From assembly GCA_944386685.1 (NCBI GenBank), contig CALXCA010000004.1, positions 9,410 through 73,409 on the forward strand: 64,000 nt of DNA, in the 5' to 3' direction. This DNA is from an uncultured Clostridia bacterium. GTDB taxonomy: Bacteria > Bacillota > Clostridia > TANB77 > CAG-508. Made by a program: the position numbers and the translations under genes. This document shows, piece after piece, positions 30,157 to 44,728 of the stretch; position 1 is the first letter of the stretch, and every line of letters starts with the position of its first letter. A model generated the notes under the pieces. That model made no database searches. It had not been told where the DNA came from and was given only the letters and a program-made list of their open reading frames with translations.

Positions 30157-33100
30157 ATGAAAGGTTCTAATAATGAAAAAAGTTCTAATAATTCTCCAAT
30201 TGTTTTAGAATTTAATCTTAGTAAAGTTATTCTAATATTAATTGCTATAATTGTATGTATATCTGCAATTATGACTGTAAAAGTTATAAAATCAGAACAA
30301 GATAAACCTACAATTAATTCTATGGCAAATGATGAAAATAATGAAATTTTAGAAGAATCAGAAAAAGACAATACAATTATTGCTAATTTAAATAATGAAG
30401 AAGAAAATAGTAATTTAAATAAAGATGTGCAACAAACCAATGAAGTAACAACACAAGAAAATATTGACTTACAGCAAGAAAAAGCTGGACCAATAAATAT
30501 TGCACATATTAAAATTAACAGTGAAACAGTATCTTTACAAGATTCTGGAAAATCAAAAATAACTTTAACTAGTGCATTTGATTCAAAAGAAATTGATTCA
30601 GAAAATTTACAAGTAGAATGGATTAAAGAATCAACAGATGGTGGAGATGTGGAAGTAAAATCATATGGAGAAAATCTATATGTATATGGAAAAAGCATTG
30701 GAACAGTTAATTTAAAAGCCAAAGTTACATATAATGGCACTGCAATAGAGACAAATACTATTACAATAAATGTAAAAGATGAATTAGATGATGCATATCA
30801 AAAAGTAACATTATTTAAATATGATTCAGAAGAGCTATTTGAAATGGGAGGTTCTATAAAAGATATAAGTAATCAAGGAATTTATTTTACTGGAGGAGAC
30901 TTTGTTACAGGTAACAGCATGACTTTTAGTGCTTGGAACAGTTATAATGTTTATGCACCAACTAAACCTTATACAGGATTAGTTGAAAATACATTGGATG
31001 AAAATGGAAATATAGTTTTTACTAAACCAGATAATGGTATTTTTGATGAAAGCATAACACAAGGTAAAGAAATATATAAAAATGTAGGACTACCATTTAA
31101 ATCAATAGGAAATGGAAAATATGAATTTATAAGTTCAGAAACAGAAGTTAATTTTGGAGGTCAAACACCACAAAGTGATATAAATTTGGTTAGCTCAGAT
31201 ACTAAAAATACATATAGCGGATATGAAGGATTTTTCCCATTTAACTATAGAAATGGCGAACAAGCAATATATCATTTTGGAATGCATGCACAAATACCAT
31301 TTTATATGACAGAAGACGGAAAAACAAATATTGGAGAAAGTGAAGATATAGTATTTGATTTTTCTGGAGATGATGATGTATGGATATTTATAGATGGAAA
31401 ATTAGTAATAGATTTAGGTGGAATTCATGATGAAATAGCTGCAAATATTAATTTTGCTACAGGAGATATTACAACTTATTCAGGCTTAAAAAGTACAAAT
31501 AAAATATTAAAAGTTGAACAACTAACAGATATATTAGGTGAAGATTGGAATAATAATTTAGAAGAACAGCACACATTAGACATATTTTATTTAGAAAGAG
31601 GTGCTGGAAGATCAAACTGTTCAATAACATATAATATGCCAAAAGAAGTACAAACATCAAAAGTTGTTGTACATCACTATATAGATGGAACAACAGATAA
31701 AGTAAGAGAAGATGAAATAATAAAAGAAAATGTTGGAGAACTTTATGTAACATCACCAAGTGAAATAAAATATATTCCGCCAATGTATGAAGTTGTTGAA
31801 GAAAAATTACCAGACAATGCAATGGGAATTGTAGAATTAACAAATGAAGATGTAATATATTATTATAGATTAAAAGAACAAAGTAAAATAACAAAAACAG
31901 GAACAGAAGAAATAACATCATTAACACAACCTGTTGAATATAATATAGTTTATGATGCAGCAATTAAAGACTATCCTGGAATTGCAATTGTAGAAATTGT
32001 TGATAAATTACCATATAAAATTGATGAAGCTAAATCAAATTTATCTAATGGTGTTTATGATGACAATGCCAAAACAATAACTTGGAAAGGATTATATGAT
32101 GCAAATACAGATATATTAACATGGGATAATGAAAATGCAGGAGAAAATGAGGGAGTTGAAGTTCTAGCTAGTGGAAATATAAAGATAACCAAAAATATAT
32201 CTATAGTTTATAAAGATATACCGCTAACAGAAGGAACTGTACTTGAAAATCAAATAGAAGGAAGACTAGAAACAAAAAAAGGATTTGATGAAACTACAGG
32301 AGATACATTTGAAACAAAAACAGACTTTAAAACAAAAATAGAGATAGAAAAAGTTTGGTTAGGAGATTTTGAAGAAGATAGACCAGAAACAATAACAGTA
32401 AAACTATTAGCAAATGGACAAGAGCAAGATACAAGAACATTAGATAAAAATAATTCATGGGAAGCAAGTTTTGAAAATTTAAATAAATATGACGATGAAA
32501 GAAATGAAATAAAATATACAATAGAAGAAGTTGTTCCAGATGGATATTTTATATCAAATGAAGAAATAACAGATATAGAAAAAGGTCAAAAATATGTACT
32601 AACAAACTTTAAATATGGAGAATTACAAATAACAAAAGTAGCAGAAGAAGACAATTCTATTAAATTAGAGGGAACAGAATTTGAATTATATAAAAATATA
32701 TCACATACAAATTTAGACAATGAATTAATAGACAGGAACAATTTTGCAACAAATTGGGAATTAGTTAATACATATACTGCAGGAAGTGATGGAATAATTA
32801 ATTTAACAGATTTAGACAAATCTTTTGAATATAGATTAGTAGAAACAAAAGCTGCAAATGGAAGAATATTACCAGAAGGTCAATGGAAAATTGAATTTGT
32901 ATATGGTGATTATGATGAAAATGATGATACTATAAAAAATATTAATGGAACATTAGTAAGAATAAGTAAAATAGGAAGTACACCAAATTTTGTAATAACA
33001 GATGATGGTAATTTATTATTACAAAACAAAAGTTATTATGAACTTCCAAAAAGTGGTGGTAGTGGTAATACAAGTTTCTATATTGTAGGTATTGTTGTTG

Positions 33101-33180
33101 CAATATTAGGTACTATAGTATTAATTGGAAATAGACATTATGCTTCTAAAAATTATTTAAAAATAAAAAATTTAAAATAA
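30157..33180 (+). CDS. Large sortase-anchored surface protein (Big_2-like, PA14/fibro-slime, Cna-B-type and SpaA-like domains)
   Basis: N-terminal signal anchor. FSGDDDVWIFIDGKLVIDLGGIHD is the fibro-slime/PA14 motif. Cna-B-like KVWLGDFEEDRPETITVKLLANG...YTIEE. The C-terminal sorting signal is LPKSG, then a hydrophobic stretch, then a basic tail. Confidence 0.8.
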   Translation: MKGSNNEKSSNNSPIVLEFNLSKVILILIAIIVCISAIMTVKVIKSEQDKPTINSMANDENNEILEESEKDNTIIANLNNEEENSNLNKDVQQTNEVTTQENIDLQQEKAGPINIAHIKINSETVSLQDSGKSKITLTSAFDSKEIDSENLQVEWIKESTDGGDVEVKSYGENLYVYGKSIGTVNLKAKVTYNGTAIETNTITINVKDELDDAYQKVTLFKYDSEELFEMGGSIKDISNQGIYFTGGDFVTGNSMTFSAWNSYNVYAPTKPYTGLVENTLDENGNIVFTKPDNGIFDESITQGKEIYKNVGLPFKSIGNGKYEFISSETEVNFGGQTPQSDINLVSSDTKNTYSGYEGFFPFNYRNGEQAIYHFGMHAQIPFYMTEDGKTNIGESEDIVFDFSGDDDVWIFIDGKLVIDLGGIHDEIAANINFATGDITTYSGLKSTNKILKVEQLTDILGEDWNNNLEEQHTLDIFYLERGAGRSNCSITYNMPKEVQTSKVVVHHYIDGTTDKVREDEIIKENVGELYVTSPSEIKYIPPMYEVVEEKLPDNAMGIVELTNEDVIYYYRLKEQSKITKTGTEEITSLTQPVEYNIVYDAAIKDYPGIAIVEIVDKLPYKIDEAKSNLSNGVYDDNAKTITWKGLYDANTDILTWDNENAGENEGVEVLASGNIKITKNISIVYKDIPLTEGTVLENQIEGRLETKKGFDETTGDTFETKTDFKTKIEIEKVWLGDFEEDRPETITVKLLANGQEQDTRTLDKNNSWEASFENLNKYDDERNEIKYTIEEVVPDGYFISNEEITDIEKGQKYVLTNFKYGELQITKVAEEDNSIKLEGTEFELYKNISHTNLDNELIDRNNFATNWELVNTYTAGSDGIINLTDLDKSFEYRLVETKAANGRILPEGQWKIEFVYGDYDENDDTIKNINGTLVRISKIGSTPNFVITDDGNLLLQNKSYYELPKSGGSGNTSFYIVGIVVAILGTIVLIGNRHYASKNYLKIKNLK

Positions 33181-38094: not shown

Positions 38095-39105
38095 TTATTC
38101 AACATTTAATAAGTTCCAAAGGTCACTTACATGGAACGATTCGTAACTGCCATATTTTTCGTAGGTTACAAATACAATGTCAAGAATGTTACCACTGTTA
38201 GTTTTAGAAGAACTTTTTGCTAAAACGAATTGGTCTGGAACATTTCTAGCTCTTTTTTCAGCCACTTTGTTCCAAATTTGTTCTTTTTTGATTTTTACTC
38301 TTGTATCAAGATTGTTTTTTACAATCTCATAATAAAGAGTTTTAGCTTCAGATGTTTTGCTATACCGCGCTCTTTCGATCGCTTTCTCAAAAATTTCAAA
38401 TTGCATGCTTTGCGGACAATTAGCAAAGTCAATAAAACAATTAAGAGTTTTGTCATAAAGCTTTTTTATGTGATTTATTTCTACAGAATTAAATTTACTA
38501 ATACCTTCAGAATAAAGCACATTCCAAAAAGCATTTTGAACTTTTTCTTTAATTAAATCTTCTTGTGTTTTCACACCTTTCTTAGAATATTGTACAATAG
38601 TATTTAAATCTGAATCAGTATCAGGAAAGTCTACAGAAAACTTAATTTCTGCTTTTTTTAAGGCTTTCTTAATAGACTCTATTCCTGCTTCTTTTTCTAA
38701 AGAAGTTAAAGTAACAGGAGTGAAAGAAATGCTTCCTCTATAATGCTTTTGTGCAGTAATATTATAACAAATAAAATTAAAAAGTAATTCATGAGAATCA
38801 ACTTTAATAAAAAAGTTTCTTTCCAAAAGATTATTCTTTTTTAATTCTGTTGTTAAGACTGCTACTGAAGTGTAATAACCAGCTTTCTGGTCAAAACTAA
38901 AGCTTTTAATTGGAAAAGATTTGTTTATGCTATTCCAAGAATCCCGATATAATTCCAGCCAAACTTCTTCATAGATTTGATTTTTCCTTTGCTCATCGAG
39001 CAAATCAAAATCATTGAGAATTTTTGCAAGGAAAGGGTACTGGTTTTGTTTTGGATTTTTTACAAAATCCAGTGTTTCAAGCAATTTTTCATTAATAAGA
39101 ATCAT
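38095..39105 (-). CDS. Hypothetical protein, 336 aa, no recognised domain; visibly G+C-richer
   Basis: Long ORF with a ggagg RBS 6 nt upstream of ATG 39105, and its own terminator. Confidence 0.6.
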   Translation of the reverse strand: MILINEKLLETLDFVKNPKQNQYPFLAKILNDFDLLDEQRKNQIYEEVWLELYRDSWNSINKSFPIKSFSFDQKAGYYTSVAVLTTELKKNNLLERNFFIKVDSHELLFNFICYNITAQKHYRGSISFTPVTLTSLEKEAGIESIKKALKKAEIKFSVDFPDTDSDLNTIVQYSKKGVKTQEDLIKEKVQNAFWNVLYSEGISKFNSVEINHIKKLYDKTLNCFIDFANCPQSMQFEIFEKAIERARYSKTSEAKTLYYEIVKNNLDTRVKIKKEQIWNKVAEKRARNVPDQFVLAKSSSKTNSGNILDIVFVTYEKYGSYESFHVSDLWNLLNVE

Positions 39106-39283
39106 AAAGAACCTCCATTTTAGTAATTATTTTAATGAAAAGAACGTACAAAATATAATATACCACATTTTACATAATTTGTCCATAATTGATTTTGATT
39201 TTAAAAATATTTTACATAGAAATGATTTTGGAATATATAAATAATAAAAAATATCTTTGAAAAATGAGTTTATAAATGTTTTT

Positions 39284-39312
39284 TTGAAAAATTTACATAA
39301 ATATGTTATAAT
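39284..39312 (+). promoter_or_regulatory. Promoter of the 74-aa gene
   Basis: TTGAAA, a 17-nt spacer, then TATAAT with an upstream TG. It is nearly identical to 49496-49524. Confidence 0.6.
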
Positions 39313-39404
39313 ATAGTTATATAAAGCTGAATGCTTTAAAATGTAAACCTTATGGTTTACAAGTCCGTATGTACGCTTCAAAGATAGTTCTAGGAGGGAA
39401 AAAA

Positions 39405-39629
39405 ATGGCAATGTATCAGTGTCCCAGTGTTAAGATTGTAATCTCTAATTCTGTTCCTGTTGAAGGACAGAAAATGAGATGCTCCAGATTGGAGTACTTT
39501 TCTAACTTGGGGGTGAAGTTTGACGAAGTTTTAACTTCGACTGTGGTTGAAGTTAAAACGCTGGACTTGAATGAACGAGTCTATGCGGTGAGAACCAAAA
39601 ACACATGCTATGTGGTAAAGGTTGGCTAA
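39405..39629 (+). CDS. Small hypothetical protein, 74 aa
   Basis: aggaggg RBS 7 nt before ATG 39405 (MAMYQCPSVKIV...). G+C-richer. The stop is embedded in the hairpin gtaaaggtt/aacctttac. Confidence 0.5.
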   Translation: MAMYQCPSVKIVISNSVPVEGQKMRCSRLEYFSNLGVKFDEVLTSTVVEVKTLDLNERVYAVRTKNTCYVVKVG

Positions 39630-40012
39630 CCTTTACTAAAAAAGAATCATCTTTCTCTCACTTTGTTGGTGGGAGTTTTCTTTGTTTTATGTTTTCTTCA
39701 AATTGTAATTGATTAAAAACTTCAAGTGATTTATCCAAATTTTGTCTATATAAAAAAACTTACAAACCTTACAGTCCGTAAGTTGCTTTCAAATGAAGCG
39801 ATTACGGAGCAGGTATGCGAAAAAATTACATACACTTGTTTCAAGCTCTTATATAACTCGATTTATTGTTTATACTTTAACATAAAATTTATATTTTAGC
39901 AATAGTTATAAAGAATAAATATCTATTAATTAGAATATCACAAATTTTGTCTATAGAAATAATATTGGCTTATCATCAATTATCAATCTATCCATATATT
40001 CATTTTCCCATT

Positions 40013-40186
40013 TTAGTGTTTTTCATTCCAAAAGAAGCCAGATGGAACATTTGCATTAAATTCACTATCATATTTTCTAATTAAATTAGAATCAATAAAC
40101 AATGGAATATTTCTTTCAGTATCAATATCTACAAAATCAAGTTCAAATTGAGATTTTGTTAAATTTAATTTCTCACTAATTTTCAT
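40013..40186 (-). pseudogene. 57-codon ORF that looks like the N-terminal stub of a larger gene
   Basis: Strong RBS (gggggag) before ATG 40186. MKISEKLNLTKSQFELDFVDIDTERNIPLFIDSNLIRKYDSEF... ends abruptly. It is below the ORF-track cutoff. Confidence 0.35.
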
Positions 40187-40326
40187 TTTTCTCCCCCAAA
40201 AAAATTCTTATTTTTACAATATTATAGAATATTTTTAAAAATTTTCAAATAGTATTGATTACAAAACTTATGTTTGGTATAATAATAAAAATTAATTGTT
40301 ATATTATTTCAAAAGGAGGTCAAGAT

Positions 40327-40793
40327 ATGCCAGAATTAAGCGTTTTAAATCAAAAAATAAACTATATACAAATTGATGATGAAGATTATATATCAATTAC
40401 TGATATGTTAAAATCAAAAGATGGAAATTTCTTTGTTTCAGACTGGCTAAGGAATAGAAATACTATTGAGTTTTTAGGTATTTGGGAAGAAATTCATAAT
40501 CCTAATTTTAATTATGGCGAATTCGCCATAATTAAAAGTCAAGCAGGTTTAAATAGTTATAAAATTAGTGTTAAAGAATGGACAGAAAAAACAAATGCGA
40601 TTGGAATAATATCAAAAGCAGGAAGATATGGAGGAACTTATGCTCATAAAGATATTGCTTTTGAATTTGGAATGTGGATTAGTCCAAAATTCAAACTATT
40701 ATTGATAAAAGAAAAAGACTTGAAAAATTAAATAAAATAGCTATATCACAAATGCAAATTTTAAATGATACTGATATTAAATATTTAAAGTAA
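40327..40793 (+). pseudogene. KilA-N domain protein interrupted by a frameshift in an A5 run
   Basis: aggagg RBS. YISITDMLKSKDG...WLRNRNTIEFLGIWEEIHNPNF...GGTYAHKDIAFEFGMWISPKFKL is KilA-N-like. The frame stops at 40731. Adding one A to the run at 40723-40727 continues the frame as KKLNKIAISQMQILNDTDIKYLK, ending at 40793. Confidence 0.65.
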
Positions 40794-40885
40794 TAAATAT
40801 GAGAATACTTTTTCTATATTAAAATTATTTATAATTGAAAAAACAAGTGGATTGCATTCTATATTTGCAACCCACTCATTTTTAA

Positions 40886-41206
40886 TTACTTGAACAATTC
40901 CGTATGCTCAATCAATCGATAATCATTTCCGTCAGGTAACTGAAACTTGAATCTCTTATCAAGAGTTATATCATATCTTTCGATTTGATATTTGTCCCTG
41001 CCATTTCCTGAACTAGCATACTTATAGACGTACAGTGTAAAATCTTTGATTTTAGAAGCTTCCTCTTTGGTAAGAAAACTAATTGTTTGAGTTTCGGGTT
41101 CTTAAGCACCATATTCCCAAACATCTCTAAAACAATGATATTCACTTTTTTTGTTTTCTTAGAACTCACTTGTTCCAATACTTTTAAATGGTTCGACGAA
41201 AACGCA
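40886..41206 (-). pseudogene. Decayed reading frame with two in-frame TAA codons and no start
   Basis: The minus-strand frame reads CVFVEPFKSIGTSEF*ENKKSEYHCFRDVWEYGA*EPETQTISFLTKEEASKIKDFTLYVYKYASSGNGRDKYQIERYDITLDKRFKFQLPDGNDYRLIEHTELFK*. A terminator hairpin lies downstream at about 40844-40880. Confidence 0.35.
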
Positions 41207-41358
41207 TTATGGAGCGAATCACATACAAGTTACGAACTCTCTTGTTCTCTTTCTAATGATATTATATATAAATTACTATTGAAATTCAATTGAAATATAG
41301 AAAATTTTTGATATTTGTTATATAATAATTACATATTTATACTTTATGGAGTGATTAT

Positions 41359-42363
41359 ATGTTAAAAGAAATAAAAATAGAGTTAACTAATAAATGTGCT
41401 AGGAATTGTAAACATTGTTCTAGTAATGCTACTAATAATATTGACAATCTAAAAGAATTAGATTTTGATAGTGTATATAAAATTATTACAGAAGCAAAAG
41501 TAATGGGTGTTGAAGATATAGTTTTTACAGGTGGGGAACCTTTAATGTATGATAGCCTTTCTGAACTTGTTGAGTTAACTTCAAAATTAGAAATGAAATC
41601 AACTATTTATACCTTTGCATATAGAACTGATGAAACTTTAAATAAATATAAACATTTAATTAATTTAGGATTAAATAAAATTGTTTATTCTCTCGCAGAT
41701 TCTTTATCAGATGAAAAAGATATTTCTATATATAACAATCAAGAATTTTTTGATAAAGTTTTTGAAGAAAATGATGCTAAATTAGGATTTCATTATACCG
41801 TTTCTAAAGATTCATATTCTAAATTTAAGGATGTTATAATTAGTGCAATAAATACATTTAAAAGCAGAAAATATTTTGATAAGGTAAGTTTATTAAGATT
41901 TGTCCCTCATGGAAAAGGAACAACTTATATGGATTTATCAAAAGAACAATTATTAGATATTAAAGATTTTTATTTAAATTTTGCTGACAAAAATAGAATT
42001 AGACTTGGTAGTCCTTGGAATATATTAGGTATTGAAAATAGTCCTTGTATTATTGCTGATAAAATAATGATAATTGGCTTTGATGGAATTGCTTATCCTT
42101 GTGATTCAATAAAATATTTTACTGAATTAGGTATTAGTGGAAATATAAACGATAACTCTTTAATGGATATGTATAATTCTGAATACTTTAGTAATATTAG
42201 AAATTTTAATATTAATAATTCTTGTTCTTCTTGTGAACAATATTCAATTTGTAAAAGTGGCTGTATAGGGCAAAAAATAATAGCAAATTATACTGATAAC
42301 AAAGATAAAGTACTAACATTAAAAAGTTGTATTAATTCACGAGATCCAAAATGTATGAGGTAA
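41359..42363 (+). CDS. Radical SAM enzyme with a C-terminal SPASM-type auxiliary cluster domain
   Basis: CARNCKHC (CxxxCxxC) at residues 13-20. GGEPLMY. C-terminal C-x17-C (CIIADKIMIIGFDGIAYPC) and CSSCEQYSICKSGC, which is Cx2Cx5Cx3C. Confidence 0.85.
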   Translation: MLKEIKIELTNKCARNCKHCSSNATNNIDNLKELDFDSVYKIITEAKVMGVEDIVFTGGEPLMYDSLSELVELTSKLEMKSTIYTFAYRTDETLNKYKHLINLGLNKIVYSLADSLSDEKDISIYNNQEFFDKVFEENDAKLGFHYTVSKDSYSKFKDVIISAINTFKSRKYFDKVSLLRFVPHGKGTTYMDLSKEQLLDIKDFYLNFADKNRIRLGSPWNILGIENSPCIIADKIMIIGFDGIAYPCDSIKYFTELGISGNINDNSLMDMYNSEYFSNIRNFNINNSCSSCEQYSICKSGCIGQKIIANYTDNKDKVLTLKSCINSRDPKCMR

Positions 42364-42367
42364 GAAT

Positions 42368-43315
42368 ATGAAAAAAAGACAAGAAGTATATGATTTATAT
42401 TGGTATTTTGCTTGCGAAAGACAAAGTATTTTTTGGAAAAAAGTAAACGGAGAATCTGCTCCATGGACTAATGATAGAATTTTACAAGAATATAAATTTT
42501 GTAATAGTTATCGAGTTAATGATAGAGTTAGTCAATATTTGCTAAAAAATGTTATATATAACGGAAAAAAATATTCTAATGAAGATATATTATTTAGAAT
42601 ATTATTATTTAAATTGTTTAATAAAGAATCCACTTGGGAATTGTTAAAATATAATTTTGAAGAAATAACGCTAAAGTCATTTAAAATTAAAGAATATTCT
42701 AAAGTATTAGAAAATGCCATATCAAGAGGTACGAAGATTTACAATGATGCATATATAAGCTGTGCTAATAAGGCATTCGGTTATGATAGAAAACATGACA
42801 ATCATCTAGCACTACTAAATAAGATGTTTGGCGAAGATAAAATACAAGATAAAATTGTTAATTGTAAAACTATGGAAGAAGCTTTTTATATTATTAAAAG
42901 TTATCCTCTAATTGGTAACTTTATGGCTTATCAATTAGTTACTGATATTAATTATAGTGAAGTTGTGAATTGGAAAGAAGATGAATTTACAGTTTCTGGA
43001 CCTGGTTCACTTCGTGGAATTAAAAAATGTTTTATAGACAAAGGTAAAATGAGTAATGAAGATATAATTAGATATATGTATGAACATCAAGATGAAGAAT
43101 TTAAAAGACTAAATTTGAATTTTAAAAGAATTGGAAATAGACCTTTACAATTAATAGATTGTCAAAATATATTTTGTGAATTAGATAAGTATTGTAGACA
43201 AGCTATTCCTGATTTAAGGTCTAATAGAACTAAAATAAAAAAACATTATATACCTAAGAAAGATAAAATTGAATATATTTATCCACCAAAATGGGCAATT
43301 AATCTAAAAAATTAA
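42368..43315 (+). CDS. Protein resembling the aGPT-Pplase / 5-hmdU DNA kinase helical-domain family (putative DNA base hypermodification protein)
   Basis: The N-terminal pattern YWYFACERQSIFWKKVNGESAPWTNDRILQEYKFCNSYRVNDRVSQYL matches my memory of that family (YW.F..ER..IF...G...PWT.D.IL..YKFCN..R..DR.SQYL). The start lies 4 nt after the radical SAM stop. The family call is unverified. Confidence 0.5.
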   Translation: MKKRQEVYDLYWYFACERQSIFWKKVNGESAPWTNDRILQEYKFCNSYRVNDRVSQYLLKNVIYNGKKYSNEDILFRILLFKLFNKESTWELLKYNFEEITLKSFKIKEYSKVLENAISRGTKIYNDAYISCANKAFGYDRKHDNHLALLNKMFGEDKIQDKIVNCKTMEEAFYIIKSYPLIGNFMAYQLVTDINYSEVVNWKEDEFTVSGPGSLRGIKKCFIDKGKMSNEDIIRYMYEHQDEEFKRLNLNFKRIGNRPLQLIDCQNIFCELDKYCRQAIPDLRSNRTKIKKHYIPKKDKIEYIYPPKWAINLKN

Positions 43316-43338
43316 AATTGTATTAGAAATATCTAAAA

Positions 43339-43374
43339 GACAGCACTACTAAATTTGTTAGTGTTGACTTTTTT
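43339..43374. terminator. Shared terminator between the two-gene operon and the convergent ORF6N gene
   Basis: gacagcacta / tagtgttgac stem (one mismatch, one G-U pair) followed by tttttt. Confidence 0.65.
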
Positions 43375-43376
43375 AA

Positions 43377-44285
43377 TTACAAATTAATTATTTTTTCTAT
43401 AATTTCTTTATCTTCTATTTTATTAATTCCAAAACATTTTTTGCCTAAATCTTTGATTGAAGCTCCTAAATGATACATTTCTTTATTATCTATAATAATA
43501 AATCTATCATGAAATTTATTGGTTTTAGCAACTTTTAAGATAGGATATTCTTTATTGAATTTTTTGATGTCTAAAGTGTCAATATTACTTTTATCAGATG
43601 TTAGAATAACAACTTCTACATGGTTATTCTTCTTAGCTAACATTTTTAAAACACTATCATCAATATAATTATCTATAATTAAAATTTTATTATTTGCTTT
43701 TCTTATAATGTCTACAATTAAGCTATATGCCTCATATATCTGACCATCAAAAAATATTCTCTGTTTTATATTTTCTTCCAATTGCAATTGATTAAATACT
43801 TCATCAAATTTTTTATCATGTTCTAATAATTTGTATTCTATACTTGTTAATCTCTCAAAAACGTGTCCATTTAAGGATATAAATTTTCGCATTTCTATAA
43901 AAGATTTTATTATATTAATGCTAACTCTTACTGCTATATCATTTTTTAAAACACCTGCTAACATAGCAATTCCTTGTTCTGTAAAAACATATGGTAAATA
44001 TCTTCTTCCTCCTCTAAGCTCATCATCTATCTTTAGATTTTGTTTTGAGGTTCCAATTTGGAACCTCAAAGTTTCAAATTCATTTTCTGTTAATTGAAAA
44101 CAAAACTCTTCTGGAAATCTATCAATATTTCTTTTTACAGCTTTATTTACATTTTTTGTTTCATAATGATATAGCCTAGCTACATCACTGTCTAGCATAA
44201 CTTGTTTTCCTTTTATAGTATATATTAAATTTTTTATATCTTCATTAGTTAATTCATTTTGAATTGCTAATTTATTTTCTTCCAT
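43377..44285 (-). CDS. ORF6N (KilA-N-related) DNA-binding domain protein with a C-terminal degenerate PLD/HKD-like module
   Basis: LIYTIKGKQVMLDSDVARLYHYETKNVNKAVKRNIDRFPEEFCFQLT...GGRRYLPYVFTEQGIAMLAGVLK is a classic ORF6N sequence. The C-terminus has FHDRFIIID...GASIKDLG. I chose the start at MEENK (44285) after aagga. Confidence 0.7.
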   Translation of the reverse strand: MEENKLAIQNELTNEDIKNLIYTIKGKQVMLDSDVARLYHYETKNVNKAVKRNIDRFPEEFCFQLTENEFETLRFQIGTSKQNLKIDDELRGGRRYLPYVFTEQGIAMLAGVLKNDIAVRVSINIIKSFIEMRKFISLNGHVFERLTSIEYKLLEHDKKFDEVFNQLQLEENIKQRIFFDGQIYEAYSLIVDIIRKANNKILIIDNYIDDSVLKMLAKKNNHVEVVILTSDKSNIDTLDIKKFNKEYPILKVAKTNKFHDRFIIIDNKEMYHLGASIKDLGKKCFGINKIEDKEIIEKIINL

Positions 44286-44652
44286 AAATTCACATCCTTT
44301 TCTTACTTTATACATTCTAAAACATTCGTTCTTTAATGTCAAGACTTTTGCAATTTTTAATTTTAAAATTTATAATTTCTATTCCTTGAAAGAAATTTCT
44401 TAAATTAATGTATTTAAAATTTGACAATACAATTGTTCCTTACTTGCTTACTAAGTTGAATAGCATAATATGAAGGCTAAGTTTTCAATTTTATAAGAAT
44501 TTGTTTAACTTCTTTGAGATTATACTTCTGCTGATATTCCTTAATATAGAATGGTTTACTAGATATTTCATTCACTTTTCCAGAAAGAGAACATATTGGT
44601 TTTATACGAAAAAACAACCTACAAACTTTATAATTCGTAAGCTGTTATAATT

Positions 44653-44728
44653 TGGAGCCACTAAGCAGAATCGAACTGCTGACCTACGGGTTACGAATCC
44701 GTTGCTCTACCAACTGAGCTATAGTGGC
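44653..44728 (-). tRNA. tRNA-Thr (anticodon CGT)
   Basis: Acceptor gccacta/tagtggc, anticodon loop ttCGTaa, T-loop ttcgatt, encoded CCA. A terminator hairpin plus T-run follows immediately downstream at 44609-44646. Confidence 0.9.

What the first reader, a model, noticed from the sequence alone, without database searches (positions are those of the whole stretch)
41359..43315. Stand-alone operon: radical SAM/SPASM enzyme coupled to an aGPT-Pplase-like DNA-hypermodification protein, without the usual partner enzymes
**Seen in the sequence:**
- The two ORFs are intact and separated by 4 nt, with the second RBS inside the end of the first gene.
- They are bounded by an AT-rich promoter region and a hairpin plus T-run terminator (43339-43374).
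- They sit in a decayed island next to tRNA-Thr, where almost everything else is broken.
- ORF1 has a canonical CxxxCxxC radical SAM site and an exact Cx2Cx5Cx3C SPASM motif.
- The N-terminus of ORF2 (YWYFACERQSIFWKK..APWTNDRILQEYKFCNSYRVNDRVSQYL) matches my recollection of the family called aGPT-Pplase / 5-hmdU DNA kinase helical domain.

**Established knowledge:**
- In phages, that family appends amino acids or polyamines to pyrophosphorylated 5-hydroxymethyl-dU in DNA.
- Radical SAM enzymes take part in some of those phage pathways.

**Inference:**
- No dUMP hydroxymethylase, 5-hmdU DNA kinase, PLP enzyme or glycosylase is nearby.
- SPASM enzymes normally act on peptides, not DNA.
- This minimal pair could therefore be a new DNA (or nucleotide) modification module, or an anti-phage effector that acts on hydroxymethylated or hypermodified phage DNA.
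- Its intactness amid pseudogenes suggests selection.
Basis: partly seen in the sequence, partly recalled or inferred. Interest (0 to 1): 0.8.

Follow-up and report, generated by a model that had tools for sequence, protein, structure and literature searches.

The report
Radical SAM enzyme paired with DNA-base-binding protein
A small mobile two-gene cassette in gut bacteria always couples a radical SAM/SPASM iron-sulfur enzyme to a protein of the family that phages use to grip 5-hydroxymethyluracil in DNA; it is most likely an undescribed radical-chemistry variant of the anti-phage systems built from DNA-modification enzymes, but its chemistry is untested.

Summary
ORF1 (41359-42363) is a radical SAM enzyme with a full 7-Cys SPASM domain. 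ORF2 (42368-43315) is a full-length stand-alone HMUDK_hel domain (PF18723, E=4e-107). ORF2 has no kinase domain and no aGPT-Pplase Pfam match, but its fold resembles aGPT-Pplase clade 1.

The linkage is one-sided. All 76 ORF1-type rSAM loci with enough flank have HMUDK_hel 2-4 nt downstream, whereas only 26 of 76 assessable species-level loci (80 fetched) for ORF2 carry the rSAM. The cassette sits in at least 58 different flanking contexts. Both genes are under purifying selection (dN/dS 0.19 and 0.08) and co-evolve (r=0.80). The cassette carries a decayed tRNA-Thr copy in its leader. In the window it lies between that copy and an intact tRNA-Thr.

No precursor peptide, RRE domain or RiPP neighbours were found. 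Distant versions of the pairing occur next to TIR and Nmad2 genes in Parabacteroides and next to HTH/ImmA genes in a viral contig. A stand-alone HMUDK_hel protein is a component of the experimentally validated E. coli defence system DS-4.

Best reading (confidence about 0.45): a two-subunit enzyme that acts on a flipped pyrimidine in DNA, with a defence or conflict role. It is a new variant of a known kind; the chemistry is unknown.

The parts
41189..41262 (-). Decayed copy of tRNA-Thr(CGT), forming the left boundary of the islet. It is part of a conserved leader of about 150 nt that travels with the cassette.
   Evidence: Local alignment to the intact tRNA-Thr (44653-44722) scores 32, against 16.5+/-2.9 for 1000 dinucleotide shuffles; none reaches 32. 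The leader is 71-78% identical among cassettes whose rSAMs are about 70% identical. In L059 an intact tRNA-Thr(cgt) occupies this position.
41298..41326 (+). Promoter-like -35/-10 pair (TAGAAA-17-TATAAT).
   Evidence: 10 of 12 positions; such matches are not above chance in this AT-rich DNA. The TATAAT block is conserved in alignment A8. This assignment is inferred, not shown.
41348..41351 (+). Ribosome-binding site (GGAG) of ORF1, 7 nt before the ATG.
   Evidence: Sequence; conserved GGAG/GGGG.
41359..42363 (+). ORF1: radical SAM enzyme with a SPASM domain (334 aa). It has C13/C17/C20 plus seven auxiliary-cluster cysteines and no N-terminal RRE.
   Evidence: dN/dS is 0.19.
42357..42360 (+). 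Ribosome-binding site (GAGG) of ORF2, inside the last codons of ORF1; the intergenic gap is 4 nt, which suggests translational coupling.
   Evidence: Sequence. Across 76 metagenomic loci the gap is 2-4 nt.
42368..43315 (+). ORF2: stand-alone HMUDK_hel protein (315 aa), predicted to be an all-helical module that binds DNA and flips a base.
   Evidence: Pfam E=3.9e-107. AF2 model pLDDT 94. Foldseek matches the SP10 5-hmdU DNA kinase at TMq 0.81 and aGPT-Pplase1 at E=3e-9, with weak HhH-GPD glycosylase resemblance. dN/dS is 0.08. The polar core is invariant across architectures.
43338..43376 (+). Hairpin plus T-run between the convergent ORF2 and ORF6N genes; a probable bidirectional terminator.
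   Evidence: Fold of -13 kcal/mol, z=-2.4. The consensus scan did not call it.
43377..44342 (-). ORF6N-domain gene: a passenger in the islet, present in some strains of this species and absent in others.
   Evidence: present in L008, L009, L013 and L014; absent in L007 and L010-L012.
44653..44728 (-). Intact tRNA-Thr(CGT), forming the right boundary of the islet.
   Evidence: aligned to the decayed copy.

Best explanation
ORF1 and ORF2 form a co-translated two-subunit enzyme carried on a mobile, integrase-less islet.

ORF2 (HMUDK_hel) is the substrate-holding subunit. Like the helical domain of phage 5-hmdU DNA kinases and the related amino-acid:DNA transferases, it would bind double-stranded DNA and flip a thymine-type pyrimidine into a conserved polar pocket. 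The most likely base is 5-hydroxymethyluracil or a close analogue.

ORF1 is the catalytic partner that replaces the kinase, MazG, glycosyltransferase or methyltransferase found with HMUDK_hel elsewhere. It would cleave SAM to a 5'-deoxyadenosyl radical, abstract a hydrogen from the C5 substituent of the flipped base, and pass the electron to its two auxiliary Fe-S clusters. That is a BtrN/anSME/DesII-style two-electron oxidation, for example 5-hmU to 5-formyl-U, or thymine-CH3 to an electrophilic 5-methylene species.

The biological role is most likely conflict or defence: damaging or de-protecting foreign (phage) DNA in strictly anaerobic gut bacteria. HMUDK_hel would also have an autonomous activity that explains its frequent solitary occurrence.

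**Shown:** domain identities, one-way obligate linkage, mobility, purifying selection, co-evolution, absence of RiPP features, and defence-type contexts of relatives.
**Inferred:** complex formation, DNA as the substrate, the target base, the oxidation chemistry and the defence role.
For: **Domain identity**
- ORF2 is full-length HMUDK_hel.
- Its fold matches the helical domain of the biochemically proven SP10 kinase and aGPT-Pplase1.
- The solved relative PUGT flips its target nucleotide out of dsDNA (PMC11472151).

**A swappable enzymatic partner**
- HMUDK_hel is fused to a P-loop kinase, MazG/MazG_C, a glycosyltransferase or MT-A70.
- In phages it neighbours HMUD2 kinases, TS-like enzymes and ADDT.
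- The same polar core is invariant in all nine forms aligned: rSAM-paired, solitary, TIR/Nmad2-linked, DS-4, kinase-fused and MazG-linked.

**Linkage of the pair**
- 76 of 76 rSAM loci have HMUDK_hel 2-4 nt downstream.
- 26 of 80 species loci of ORF2 carry the rSAM.
- Pairwise distances of the two genes correlate at r=0.80, and dN/dS is 0.19 and 0.08.

**Distant SPASM rSAMs also abut HMUDK_hel**
- Seen in L182, L193, L194 and P. distasonis.
- ORF1's only hit at E<1e-8 in 7.3 Gb of plasmid sequence is that HMUDK-linked rSAM.

**Defence and mobility signals**
- ThsB-TIR, PDC-M50A and Nmad2 sit beside the Parabacteroides pair; HTH and Peptidase_M78 sit beside the L182 pair.
- Plasmid homologues have CBASS phospholipase, TIR, MazG, ImmA/IrrE and ABC-3C neighbours.
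- DS-4 contains a stand-alone HMUDK_hel.
- The cassette occupies at least 58 contexts, and part of its neighbours are defence or mobile-element genes.
- tRNA-Thr sequences flank the islet.

**Chemistry**
- ORF1's fold matches include the small-molecule SPASM/twitch dehydrogenases BtrN, DesII and BlsE, and anSME.
- ORF1 has no RRE and no precursor ORF travels with it.
Against: - No experiment bears on this pair.
- ORF1's best structural matches are peptide maturases (PqqE, SuiB, SkfB), and no SPASM enzyme is known to act on DNA (my knowledge).
- About two thirds of close ORF2 homologues (up to 87% identity) lack the rSAM, and no residue distinguishes the two classes. The rSAM is therefore dispensable for whatever HMUDK_hel does alone.
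- Neither protein hits a PADLOC model specifically. ORF1's pVip hits cover only the generic rSAM core, and ORF2 has no hit.
- Many cassette neighbours are housekeeping genes.
- DS-4's recorded phenotype is weak (about 10-fold on lambda), and lambda has no hmU.
- The homology between ORF1 and the distant HMUDK-linked rSAMs is not reciprocal-specific: the L182 rSAM scores the same against PqqE.
- No effector or self/non-self discrimination mechanism is evident in the two-gene form.
Confidence: 0.45

Rival explanations
1. Self-DNA modification. The pair installs a modified thymine, or oxidises thymine to hmU/fU, in the host's own chromosome. This would be an oxygen-independent, kinase-free epigenetic or protective mark that shields the host from its own or invading nucleases.
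For: - The family's proven role is building thymidine hypermodifications (PMC8989533; phage contexts).
- The pair has no nuclease or other effector, as expected of a modification-only module.
- It shows strong purifying selection and is kept across strains.
Against: - No cognate restriction or reader gene recurs next to it.
- The rSAM is gained and lost repeatedly while ORF2 stays almost unchanged (at least 10 switches). That is odd for a genome-wide mark.
- Relatives sit with TIR, CBASS and ImmA genes rather than R-M genes.
- Solitary ORF2 would have no substrate under this model.
Confidence: 0.2
2. Protein maturase. ORF1 post-translationally modifies ORF2 itself, as anSME matures sulfatases or QhpD cross-links its partner. 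The modification could be a cross-link or an oxidised residue that tunes HMUDK_hel activity.
For: - SPASM enzymes mostly act on peptides or proteins. Fold matches include PqqE, SuiB, SkfB, EpeE and anSME.
- The rSAM never occurs without HMUDK_hel and is translationally coupled to it.
- ORF2 has several conserved cysteines.
Against: - No residue or cysteine is specific to rSAM-paired ORF2 proteins; the largest frequency difference is 0.55.
- Unpaired orthologues up to 87% identical are maintained.
- In L182 and Parabacteroides the gene order is reversed and the HMUDK_hel context differs, yet an rSAM is again present.
Confidence: 0.12
3. Nucleotide-pool chemistry. The pair acts on free (deoxy)nucleotides rather than DNA. 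ORF1 would make a modified or chain-terminating nucleotide, as viperin does, and ORF2 would bind or process a pyrimidine nucleotide.
For: - HMUDK_hel co-occurs with MazG, TS-like enzymes, dCTP deaminase, dUTPase, and NT5C/HD nucleotidases.
- NCBI names it 'nucleotide kinase domain-containing protein'.
- Viperins appear among the fold and PADLOC matches.
Against: - The viperin matches cover only the generic rSAM core: NF038283 scores 36 bits against a cutoff of 180, and viperins lack SPASM.
- Characterised 5-HMUDKs act on DNA (PMC8989533), and PUGT flips a base in dsDNA.
Confidence: 0.12
4. RiPP or peptide maturase that merely happens to lie next to an unrelated HMUDK_hel gene.
For: A SPASM domain and generic similarity to PqqE, SuiB and SkfB.
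Against: - 76 of 76 loci show linkage with a 2-4 nt gap.
- No RRE is present.
- No conserved small ORF lies within 400 nt upstream or 320 nt downstream.
- No transporter or protease partner recurs.
- The genes co-evolve at r=0.80.
Confidence: 0.03

Closest known systems
Phage 5-hmdU DNA kinases (5-HMUDK: M6 gp54, SP10 gp186, ViI gp67/gp243; Lee et al. 2018 and 2021)
   Same: ORF2 is the same helical domain: PF18723 over its full length, with Foldseek TMq 0.81 to the SP10 kinase. The partnership logic is also the same, with a helical DNA or base-holding module plus a catalytic module.
   Different: - ORF2 has no P-loop kinase domain in cis or nearby.
- No dUMP hydroxymethylase supplies hmU.
- The partner is a radical SAM/SPASM enzyme.
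- The host is a bacterial chromosome, not a phage. ORF2 is at most 31% identical to versions in cultured phages.
aGPT-Pplase / amino-acid:DNA transferases (PUGT, PaMx11 gp46; PF18724 ADDT)
   Same: A related all-helical fold: aGPT-Pplase1 at E=3e-9 and ADDT at E about 0.02-0.1. The solved member flips the target base from dsDNA.
   Different: No Pfam or sequence match to these families. There is no evidence that ORF2 transfers amino acids or polyamines.
DS-4 ('NTTI') defence system of E. coli (DefensePredictor, Science 2026, PMC13092281)
   Same: DS-4 contains a stand-alone HMUDK_hel protein that is homologous over its full length to ORF2 (29% identity, E=3e-32) and keeps the same invariant core. 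It is a bacterial anti-phage context.
   Different: DS-4 has a TS-like enzyme, a small kinase, TIR and Nmad2, and no radical SAM. The window has only rSAM and HMUDK_hel. The DS-4 mechanism is unknown and its recorded phenotype is weak.
Parabacteroides distasonis operon PDC-M50A / ThsB-TIR / Nmad2 / HMUDK_hel / rSAM-SPASM / 521-aa protein (NZ_OY725812.1; also L193 and L194), uncharacterised
   Same: HMUDK_hel (41% identical to ORF2, E=1e-74) sits directly next to a SPASM radical SAM, which is ORF1's best match outside its own clade.
   Different: - The gene order is reversed.
- The rSAMs are only about 26% identical.
- Four extra genes are present, including TIR and Nmad2.
- The host is Bacteroidota and the operon lies next to an integrase gene.
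Phage M6 gp53, the radical SAM glycinyl-thymine isomerase (the first rSAM shown to install a DNA modification)
   Same: A radical SAM enzyme working on a hypermodified thymine in DNA, within an hmU-derived pathway.
   Different: gp53 resembles spore-photoproduct lyase and has no SPASM domain. ORF1 belongs to the SPASM/twitch group, with no SPL among its top 50 fold matches. No ORF1-like gene is found in cultured phages or in 2.9 million viral contigs.
SPASM/twitch radical SAM dehydrogenases and maturases (BtrN, DesII, BlsE, anSME, PqqE, SuiB)
   Same: The same fold class and cluster complement.
   Different: ORF1 is below every NCBIfam equivalog cutoff. It has no RRE and no peptide or sugar-pathway neighbours.

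Membership tests
HMUDK_hel (PF18723) | Full-length profile match above the gathering score | tested here: met
   358 bits against a cutoff of 25; residues 6-284 match profile positions 2-280 of 281.
5-hmdU DNA kinase (5-HMUDK) | P-loop kinase domain fused to, or encoded next to, the helical domain | tested here: not met
   ORF2 is 315 aa and consists entirely of HMUDK_hel. No kinase lies within +/-10 kb. True fusions look different.
5-hmdU DNA kinase (5-HMUDK) | Phosphorylates 5-hmdU in DNA | not testable with these tools
   Requires a biochemical assay.
aGPT-Pplase / ADDT (amino-acid or polyamine:DNA transferase) | Profile match to the aGPT-Pplase or ADDT Pfam families | tested here: not met
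   HMUDK_hel is the only Pfam hit at E<=1. PDB sequence and profile searches find no PUGT.
aGPT-Pplase / ADDT (amino-acid or polyamine:DNA transferase) | Shared fold | tested here: met
   Foldseek gives aGPT-Pplase1 at E=2.9e-9 (TMq 0.67) and ADDT at E=0.02-0.1.
Phage thymidine-hypermodification gene cluster | Co-located dUMP hydroxymethylase (TS-like), DNA kinase, transferase, and PLP, FAD or GNAT tailoring genes | tested here: not met
   None lies within +/-10 kb, and none appears among the 25 Pfam families listed for the 64-kb window. Phage loci show them.
Radical SAM superfamily | CxxxCxxC motif and a PF04055 match | tested here: met
   C13/C17/C20 are invariant. PF04055 scores 58.6 bits against a cutoff of 29.5.
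SPASM subgroup | C-terminal 7-Cys motif for two auxiliary clusters and a PF13186 match | tested here: met
   C230, C248, C289, C292, C298, C302 and C332. PF13186 scores 37 bits against a cutoff of 21.5.
RiPP maturase (PqqE, sactisynthase or ranthipeptide type) | RRE/PqqD domain or partner, and an adjacent precursor peptide gene | tested here: not met
   The rSAM motif starts at residue 13. No conserved small ORF is present. All equivalog scores are far below cutoff.
Prokaryotic viperin (pVip) | NF038283 match above cutoff and a viperin-type C-terminal domain | tested here: not met
   36 bits against a cutoff of 180. PADLOC pVip hits cover only residues 5-138.
SPL-like DNA radical SAM (M6 gp53 type) | Spore-photoproduct-lyase-like fold | tested here: not met
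   No SPL among the top 50 PDB fold matches. gp53 itself was not compared directly.
DS-4 / NTTI defence system | TS-like enzyme + kinase + HMUDK_hel + TIR + Nmad2 in one operon | tested here: not met
   Only the HMUDK_hel component is present.
Anti-phage defence system (generic) | Protects against phage when expressed | not testable with these tools
   Only contextual evidence is available.
tRNA-targeted integrated islet | Flanked by a tRNA gene and a partial or decayed direct copy of it | tested here: met
   Window 41189-42262 region: the copy at 41189-41262 aligns to the tRNA at 44653-44728; L059 has an intact tRNA-Thr at the leader position.
tRNA-targeted integrated islet | Encodes its own integrase | tested here: not met
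   No recombinase lies between the repeats. Some other contexts have a serine recombinase nearby.

The most novel reading that the evidence does not exclude
ORF1 would be the first SPASM-type radical SAM enzyme that works on a base in DNA. The base would be presented by a dedicated base-flipping subunit (HMUDK_hel). This would give strict anaerobes an oxygen-, TET- and kinase-independent way to oxidise or functionalise the C5 substituent of thymine or 5-hmU. They could use it either to wreck hypermodified phage DNA or to write a new mark in their own DNA.
Probability: 0.3. Interest if true: 0.85.

Novelty: new variant of a known kind. Interest (0 to 1): 0.62.

Why it matters
HMUDK_hel proteins are emerging as a shared core of bacterial conflict systems built from phage-style DNA-hypermodification enzymes, and DS-4 is the first validated example. 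What the stand-alone domain does is unknown, and no structure or mechanism exists even for the phage kinases.

The rSAM-linked form is the simplest genetically defined version: two genes, obligately coupled, abundant in human and animal gut bacteria. That makes the question directly testable in vitro.

If the radical enzyme acts on DNA, it would add a new reaction class to DNA modification and antiviral biochemistry. It could also become a tool for oxygen-independent editing of thymine or 5-hmU.

If the rSAM instead matures ORF2, that would reveal how the domain is activated.

Tried and rejected
- The diverse alignment A1 was too divergent for the genome scan. A2 replaced it.
- Sequence and profile searches of PDB with ORF2 found nothing, not even PUGT. 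No residue mapping onto a solved structure was therefore possible.
- The third large protein search, with a profile spanning ORF1 and the distant rSAMs, listed only close orthologues. The breadth of the wider rSAM subfamily remains unknown.
- Single-protein viral scans with the Parabacteroides-type and L182-type rSAMs returned only themselves.
- The phage-collection hits for the rSAMs were generic. They were PqqE in an 'Acinetobacter phage' contig, a Mycobacterium prophage oxidoreductase, and a 735-kb megaphage rSAM with no HMUDK_hel nearby. All were rejected as relatives.
- The maturase idea was tested by looking for residues specific to rSAM-paired ORF2 proteins. None was found.
- The RiPP idea was tested by looking for conserved small ORFs. 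None was found.
- A riboswitch or RNA in the conserved leader was considered, but Rfam gave no hit. The conservation is explained by a decayed tRNA-Thr plus a promoter.
- The neighbouring OGG glycosylase in L001-L006 was considered as a functional partner of solitary ORF2. It was rejected because the neighbours of the 50 unpaired loci are otherwise unrelated.
- Iyer et al. 2013 and Burroughs et al. 2015 are not held in the library. What I say about them rests on memory and on citations in other papers.


Full report
**1. Observation**

The two ORFs are exactly as described: ORF1 at 41359-42363 (334 aa) and ORF2 at 42368-43315 (315 aa). They are separated by 4 nt. A GAGG lies inside the last codons of ORF1, 7 nt before the ORF2 start, and ORF1 has its own GGAG.

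ORF1 matches Radical_SAM, Fer4_12 and SPASM in Pfam. Its orthologues keep C13/C17/C20 and the seven SPASM cysteines: C230, C248, C289, C292, C298, C302 and C332. It reaches no NCBIfam equivalog cutoff. PqqE scores 66 bits against a cutoff of 381, and viperin scores 36 against 180.

ORF2 is a complete HMUDK_hel domain (PF18723, E=3.9e-107) with no other Pfam, NCBIfam or PADLOC match.

The consensus scan did not call the proposed terminator. The sequence does fold as a hairpin plus T-run (-13 kcal/mol, z=-2.4). The promoter-like hexamers at 41298-41326 are no more than chance would give in this AT-rich DNA, but the -10 block is conserved among cassettes.

The window is about 26% G+C and is core chromosome, with GatB, FtsA/FtsZ, SpoIIGA, RpoB/RpoC, LepA and Tex. 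Its source is a gut MAG labelled 'uncultured Clostridia bacterium' (L021).

**2. What ORF2 is**

An AlphaFold2 model is confident (pLDDT 94, pTM 0.92) and all-helical.

Against viral predicted structures it matches several groups:
- the helical domain of the biochemically proven SP10 5-hmdU DNA kinase (E=2e-14, TMq 0.81);
- stand-alone 'HMUDK helical domain' proteins of several phages;
- aGPT-Pplase clade 1 (E=3e-9);
- amino-acid:DNA transferases, weakly.

The family is large: 4274 cluster representatives at E<=1e-3. Its fusions are to thymidylate-kinase-like P-loop domains, MazG/MazG_C, a glycosyltransferase and MT-A70.

A polar core is invariant in the nine forms aligned, whatever the partner. 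It comprises R18, R49, D52, R53, H143, Q189, D193, Y196, E204, G211-P-G213, D264, N267, C270, E271, D273, K274 and R277. I infer that the domain performs one constant task, holding a flipped pyrimidine and perhaps acting on it, while the partner supplies variable chemistry.

**3. The pairing**

Strains of the same species keep the pair, while the flanking KilA-N and ORF6N genes come and go.

rSAM orthologues at about 78% identity in other species are again followed by HMUDK_hel at the same junction, in unrelated contexts. One context includes Mob_Pre, a serine recombinase and a CHAT protein.

In 80 species-level genome loci found with ORF2, 26 have the rSAM directly upstream, 50 clearly do not, and 4 lack enough flank. 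Solitary copies reach 87% identity to ORF2. One such group lies between the rplKAJL cluster and an OGG gene.

The reverse test gave a different result. Of 80 metagenomic loci found with the rSAM, all 76 with enough flank have HMUDK_hel 2-4 nt downstream. The linkage is therefore obligate for the rSAM and optional for HMUDK_hel.

Further evidence on the pair:
- Solitary copies have unrelated housekeeping neighbours and no other recurrent partner.
- No residue or cysteine separates paired from solitary ORF2 proteins.
- Both genes are under purifying selection, with median dN/dS of 0.19 and 0.08.
- Their pairwise distances correlate at r=0.80, and the rSAM evolves about 1.6 times faster.
- The paired state changes at least 10 times on a neighbour-joining tree of 69 species.
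- The cassette occupies at least 58 distinct flanking contexts in 106 loci.

**4. Mobility and the islet**

The roughly 150 nt upstream of the rSAM are conserved among divergent cassettes. They contain a decayed, full-length copy of tRNA-Thr(CGT). Window 41189-41262 aligns to the intact tRNA-Thr at 44653-44728 with a score that none of 1000 shuffles reaches. In L059 an intact tRNA-Thr(cgt) occupies that position.

In the window, same-orientation tRNA-Thr sequences therefore bracket the rSAM, HMUDK_hel and ORF6N genes. This is a ~3.5-kb integrase-less islet.

**5. Not a RiPP system**

- The CxxxCxxC motif starts at residue 13, leaving no room for an RRE.
- No small ORF is conserved within 400 nt upstream or 320 nt downstream across contexts.
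- No protease or transporter recurs among the neighbours.
- No Rfam family matches the region.

**6. Relatives elsewhere**

In viral contigs, ORF2 relatives are at most 48% identical, apart from one contig-end fragment at 84% (L181). They are embedded in classic hmU hypermodification clusters with TS-like enzymes, YfbR/HD nucleotidases, HMUD2 kinases, ADDT, GNAT, dUTPase and dCTP deaminase. Cultured hypermodifying phages carry the domain at no more than 31% identity.

The ORF1-type rSAM is absent from 2.9 million viral contigs and from cultured phages. It is not the SPL-like type used by phage M6.

Three viral or prophage contigs do carry a SPASM-class rSAM directly next to HMUDK_hel, in the reverse gene order. 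It is 26-27% identical to ORF1 over nearly its full length.
- **L182:** HTH_3, Peptidase_M78, a 271-aa protein, a kinase-HMUDK_hel fusion, then the rSAM.
- **L193 and L194:** these equal an annotated Parabacteroides distasonis locus lying next to an integrase gene. Its genes are PDC-M50A, ThsB-type TIR, Nmad2 (E=9e-60), HMUDK_hel (41% identical to ORF2, E=1e-74), rSAM/SPASM and a 521-aa protein.

One caveat applies. The L182 rSAM scores the same against PqqE as against ORF1 (106 and 107 bits). The homology is therefore at SPASM-class level from that side. From ORF1's side, however, the Parabacteroides HMUDK-linked rSAM is the only hit at E<1e-8 in 7.3 Gb of plasmid sequence. At least 253 plasmid records carry SPASM-type rSAMs, the listed ones mostly PqqE.

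**7. Defence link**

DefensePredictor (PMC13092281) validated E. coli system DS-4 ('NTTI'). [quoted passage not shown] ORF2 aligns to that protein over its full length (29% identity, E=3e-32). The one phenotype row I found for NTTI, in part 1 of 9 of that table, is modest, about 10-fold with small plaques on lambda. Lambda DNA has no hmU (my knowledge).

On plasmids of Cyanobacteria, Alphaproteobacteria and Actinobacteria, stand-alone HMUDK_hel proteins 42-50% identical to ORF2 sit with a CBASS-type phospholipase, MazG, TIR, TS-like enzymes, dCTP deaminase, HTH-ImmA/IrrE pairs and an ABC-three-component system.

Neighbours of the Bacilli cassette are mixed. Many are housekeeping genes. A visible minority are defence or mobile genes: AAA_15/AAA_21 ATPases, DUF1016/YhcG (PDC-S02), PIN_8, resolvases, Ltp and NT5C/HD.

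**8. ORF1 chemistry**

The AF2 model is moderate (pLDDT 73), with low confidence in the cluster-binding loops. Fold matches are generic SPASM/twitch enzymes: PqqE, SuiB, DesII, SkfB, BlsE, BtrN, MoaA, EpeE, viperin, anSME and GDGT-MAS. This sets the class, one SAM cluster plus two auxiliary clusters, but not the substrate.

Several of these enzymes carry out a two-electron oxidation of a C-H next to a heteroatom, with the auxiliary clusters accepting the electron (established knowledge for BtrN, anSME and DesII). Applied to a flipped 5-hmU, that chemistry would give 5-formyl-U. Applied to a thymine methyl, it would give the same electrophilic 5-methylene intermediate that phages reach through hmU phosphorylation. 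This step is inference.

**9. Conclusion**

The finding is real and more than chance. It is a conserved, mobile, selected two-gene cassette. A radical SAM/SPASM enzyme is obligately tied to a stand-alone HMUDK_hel protein.

The best-supported reading is a two-subunit enzyme acting on a flipped pyrimidine in DNA within a conflict or defence setting (confidence about 0.45). The rivals are self-DNA modification (0.20), maturation of ORF2 by ORF1 (0.12), nucleotide-pool chemistry (0.12) and a RiPP system (0.03).

It is not a member of the 5-HMUDK kinases, the aGPT-Pplases, DS-4 or any curated rSAM family. It is a new variant, with a radical-SAM partner, of the HMUDK_hel-centred systems. I found no paper describing this pairing.

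Noticed in passing
window 41189-41262 (and L059 6783-6858): A decayed full-length copy of tRNA-Thr(CGT) lies in the conserved leader of the cassette. L059 has an intact tRNA-Thr at the same place. With the intact tRNA-Thr at 44653-44728, it brackets a ~3.5-kb integrase-less islet.
   Followed up: yes
window 43377-44342 and 39100-41300: The ORF6N-domain gene and the KilA-N/DUF8370 remnants are present in some strains of the same species and absent in others. In one strain the KilA-N gene is split in two (L007-L014). This makes the region a strain-variable hotspot beside tRNA-Thr.
   Followed up: partly
window 38095-39105 (-): A 336-aa protein with no Pfam match is conserved next to the islet in all strains examined. 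Its function is unknown.
   Followed up: no
window 30157-33180 (+): A 1007-aa Cna_B/SpaA/MucBP surface-protein gene sits between ftsZ and spoIIGA in this genome and some strains (L008, L009, L013). It is missing in others (L007, L010), where ftsZ is followed directly by spoIIGA.
   Followed up: no
L229 5354-10509 (Parabacteroides distasonis NZ_OY725812.1; also L193 and L194): A six-gene operon next to an integrase gene: PDC-M50A, ThsB-type TIR, Nmad2, HMUDK_hel, rSAM/SPASM and an unannotated 521-aa protein. It is probably an undescribed multi-gene defence system related to DS-4, with the TS and kinase replaced by a radical SAM.
   Followed up: partly
L182 5246-10033: HTH_3, Peptidase_M78 (ImmA/IrrE), a 271-aa unknown protein, a thymidylate-kinase-like/HMUDK_hel fusion (whose kinase part hits PADLOC PDC-M51B) and a radical SAM, on a 51% G+C viral contig. 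This is a third architecture joining HMUDK_hel to an rSAM.
   Followed up: partly
L001-L006 (gene at 10001-10948 of L001): A solitary ORF2 homologue (84% identity) lies between the rpmG-secE-nusG-rplKAJL cluster and an OGG/HhH-GPD glycosylase gene. The adjacency to a DNA glycosylase may be coincidental.
   Followed up: partly
L079, L093: HMUDK_hel proteins about 72% identical to ORF2 occur in Saccharibacteria/Nanosyncoccus MAGs. This suggests recent transfer between phyla of small-genome host-associated bacteria, unless the contigs are mis-binned.
   Followed up: no
L059 9037-9759, L061 3999-4724, L065: In the cassettes with a 22-nt gene gap, an HNH-endonuclease protein with a ParB-like C-terminal region follows HMUDK_hel downstream (domain call by eye from the sequence, not profile-scanned).
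   Followed up: no
L233 114-4660 (Gloeothece citriformis plasmid pP742404): A CBASS-type cGAMP-activated phospholipase gene overlaps the start of a stand-alone HMUDK_hel gene (50% identical to ORF2). A MazG-family pyrophosphohydrolase, a TIR protein and a 210-aa hypothetical protein follow.
   Followed up: no
L034 7764-8117: One species locus has only a degenerate rSAM-like fragment (38% identity, residues 109-237) abutting the HMUDK_hel start. It is possibly a decaying partner gene. No remnants were detected at the other 50 solitary loci.
   Followed up: partly
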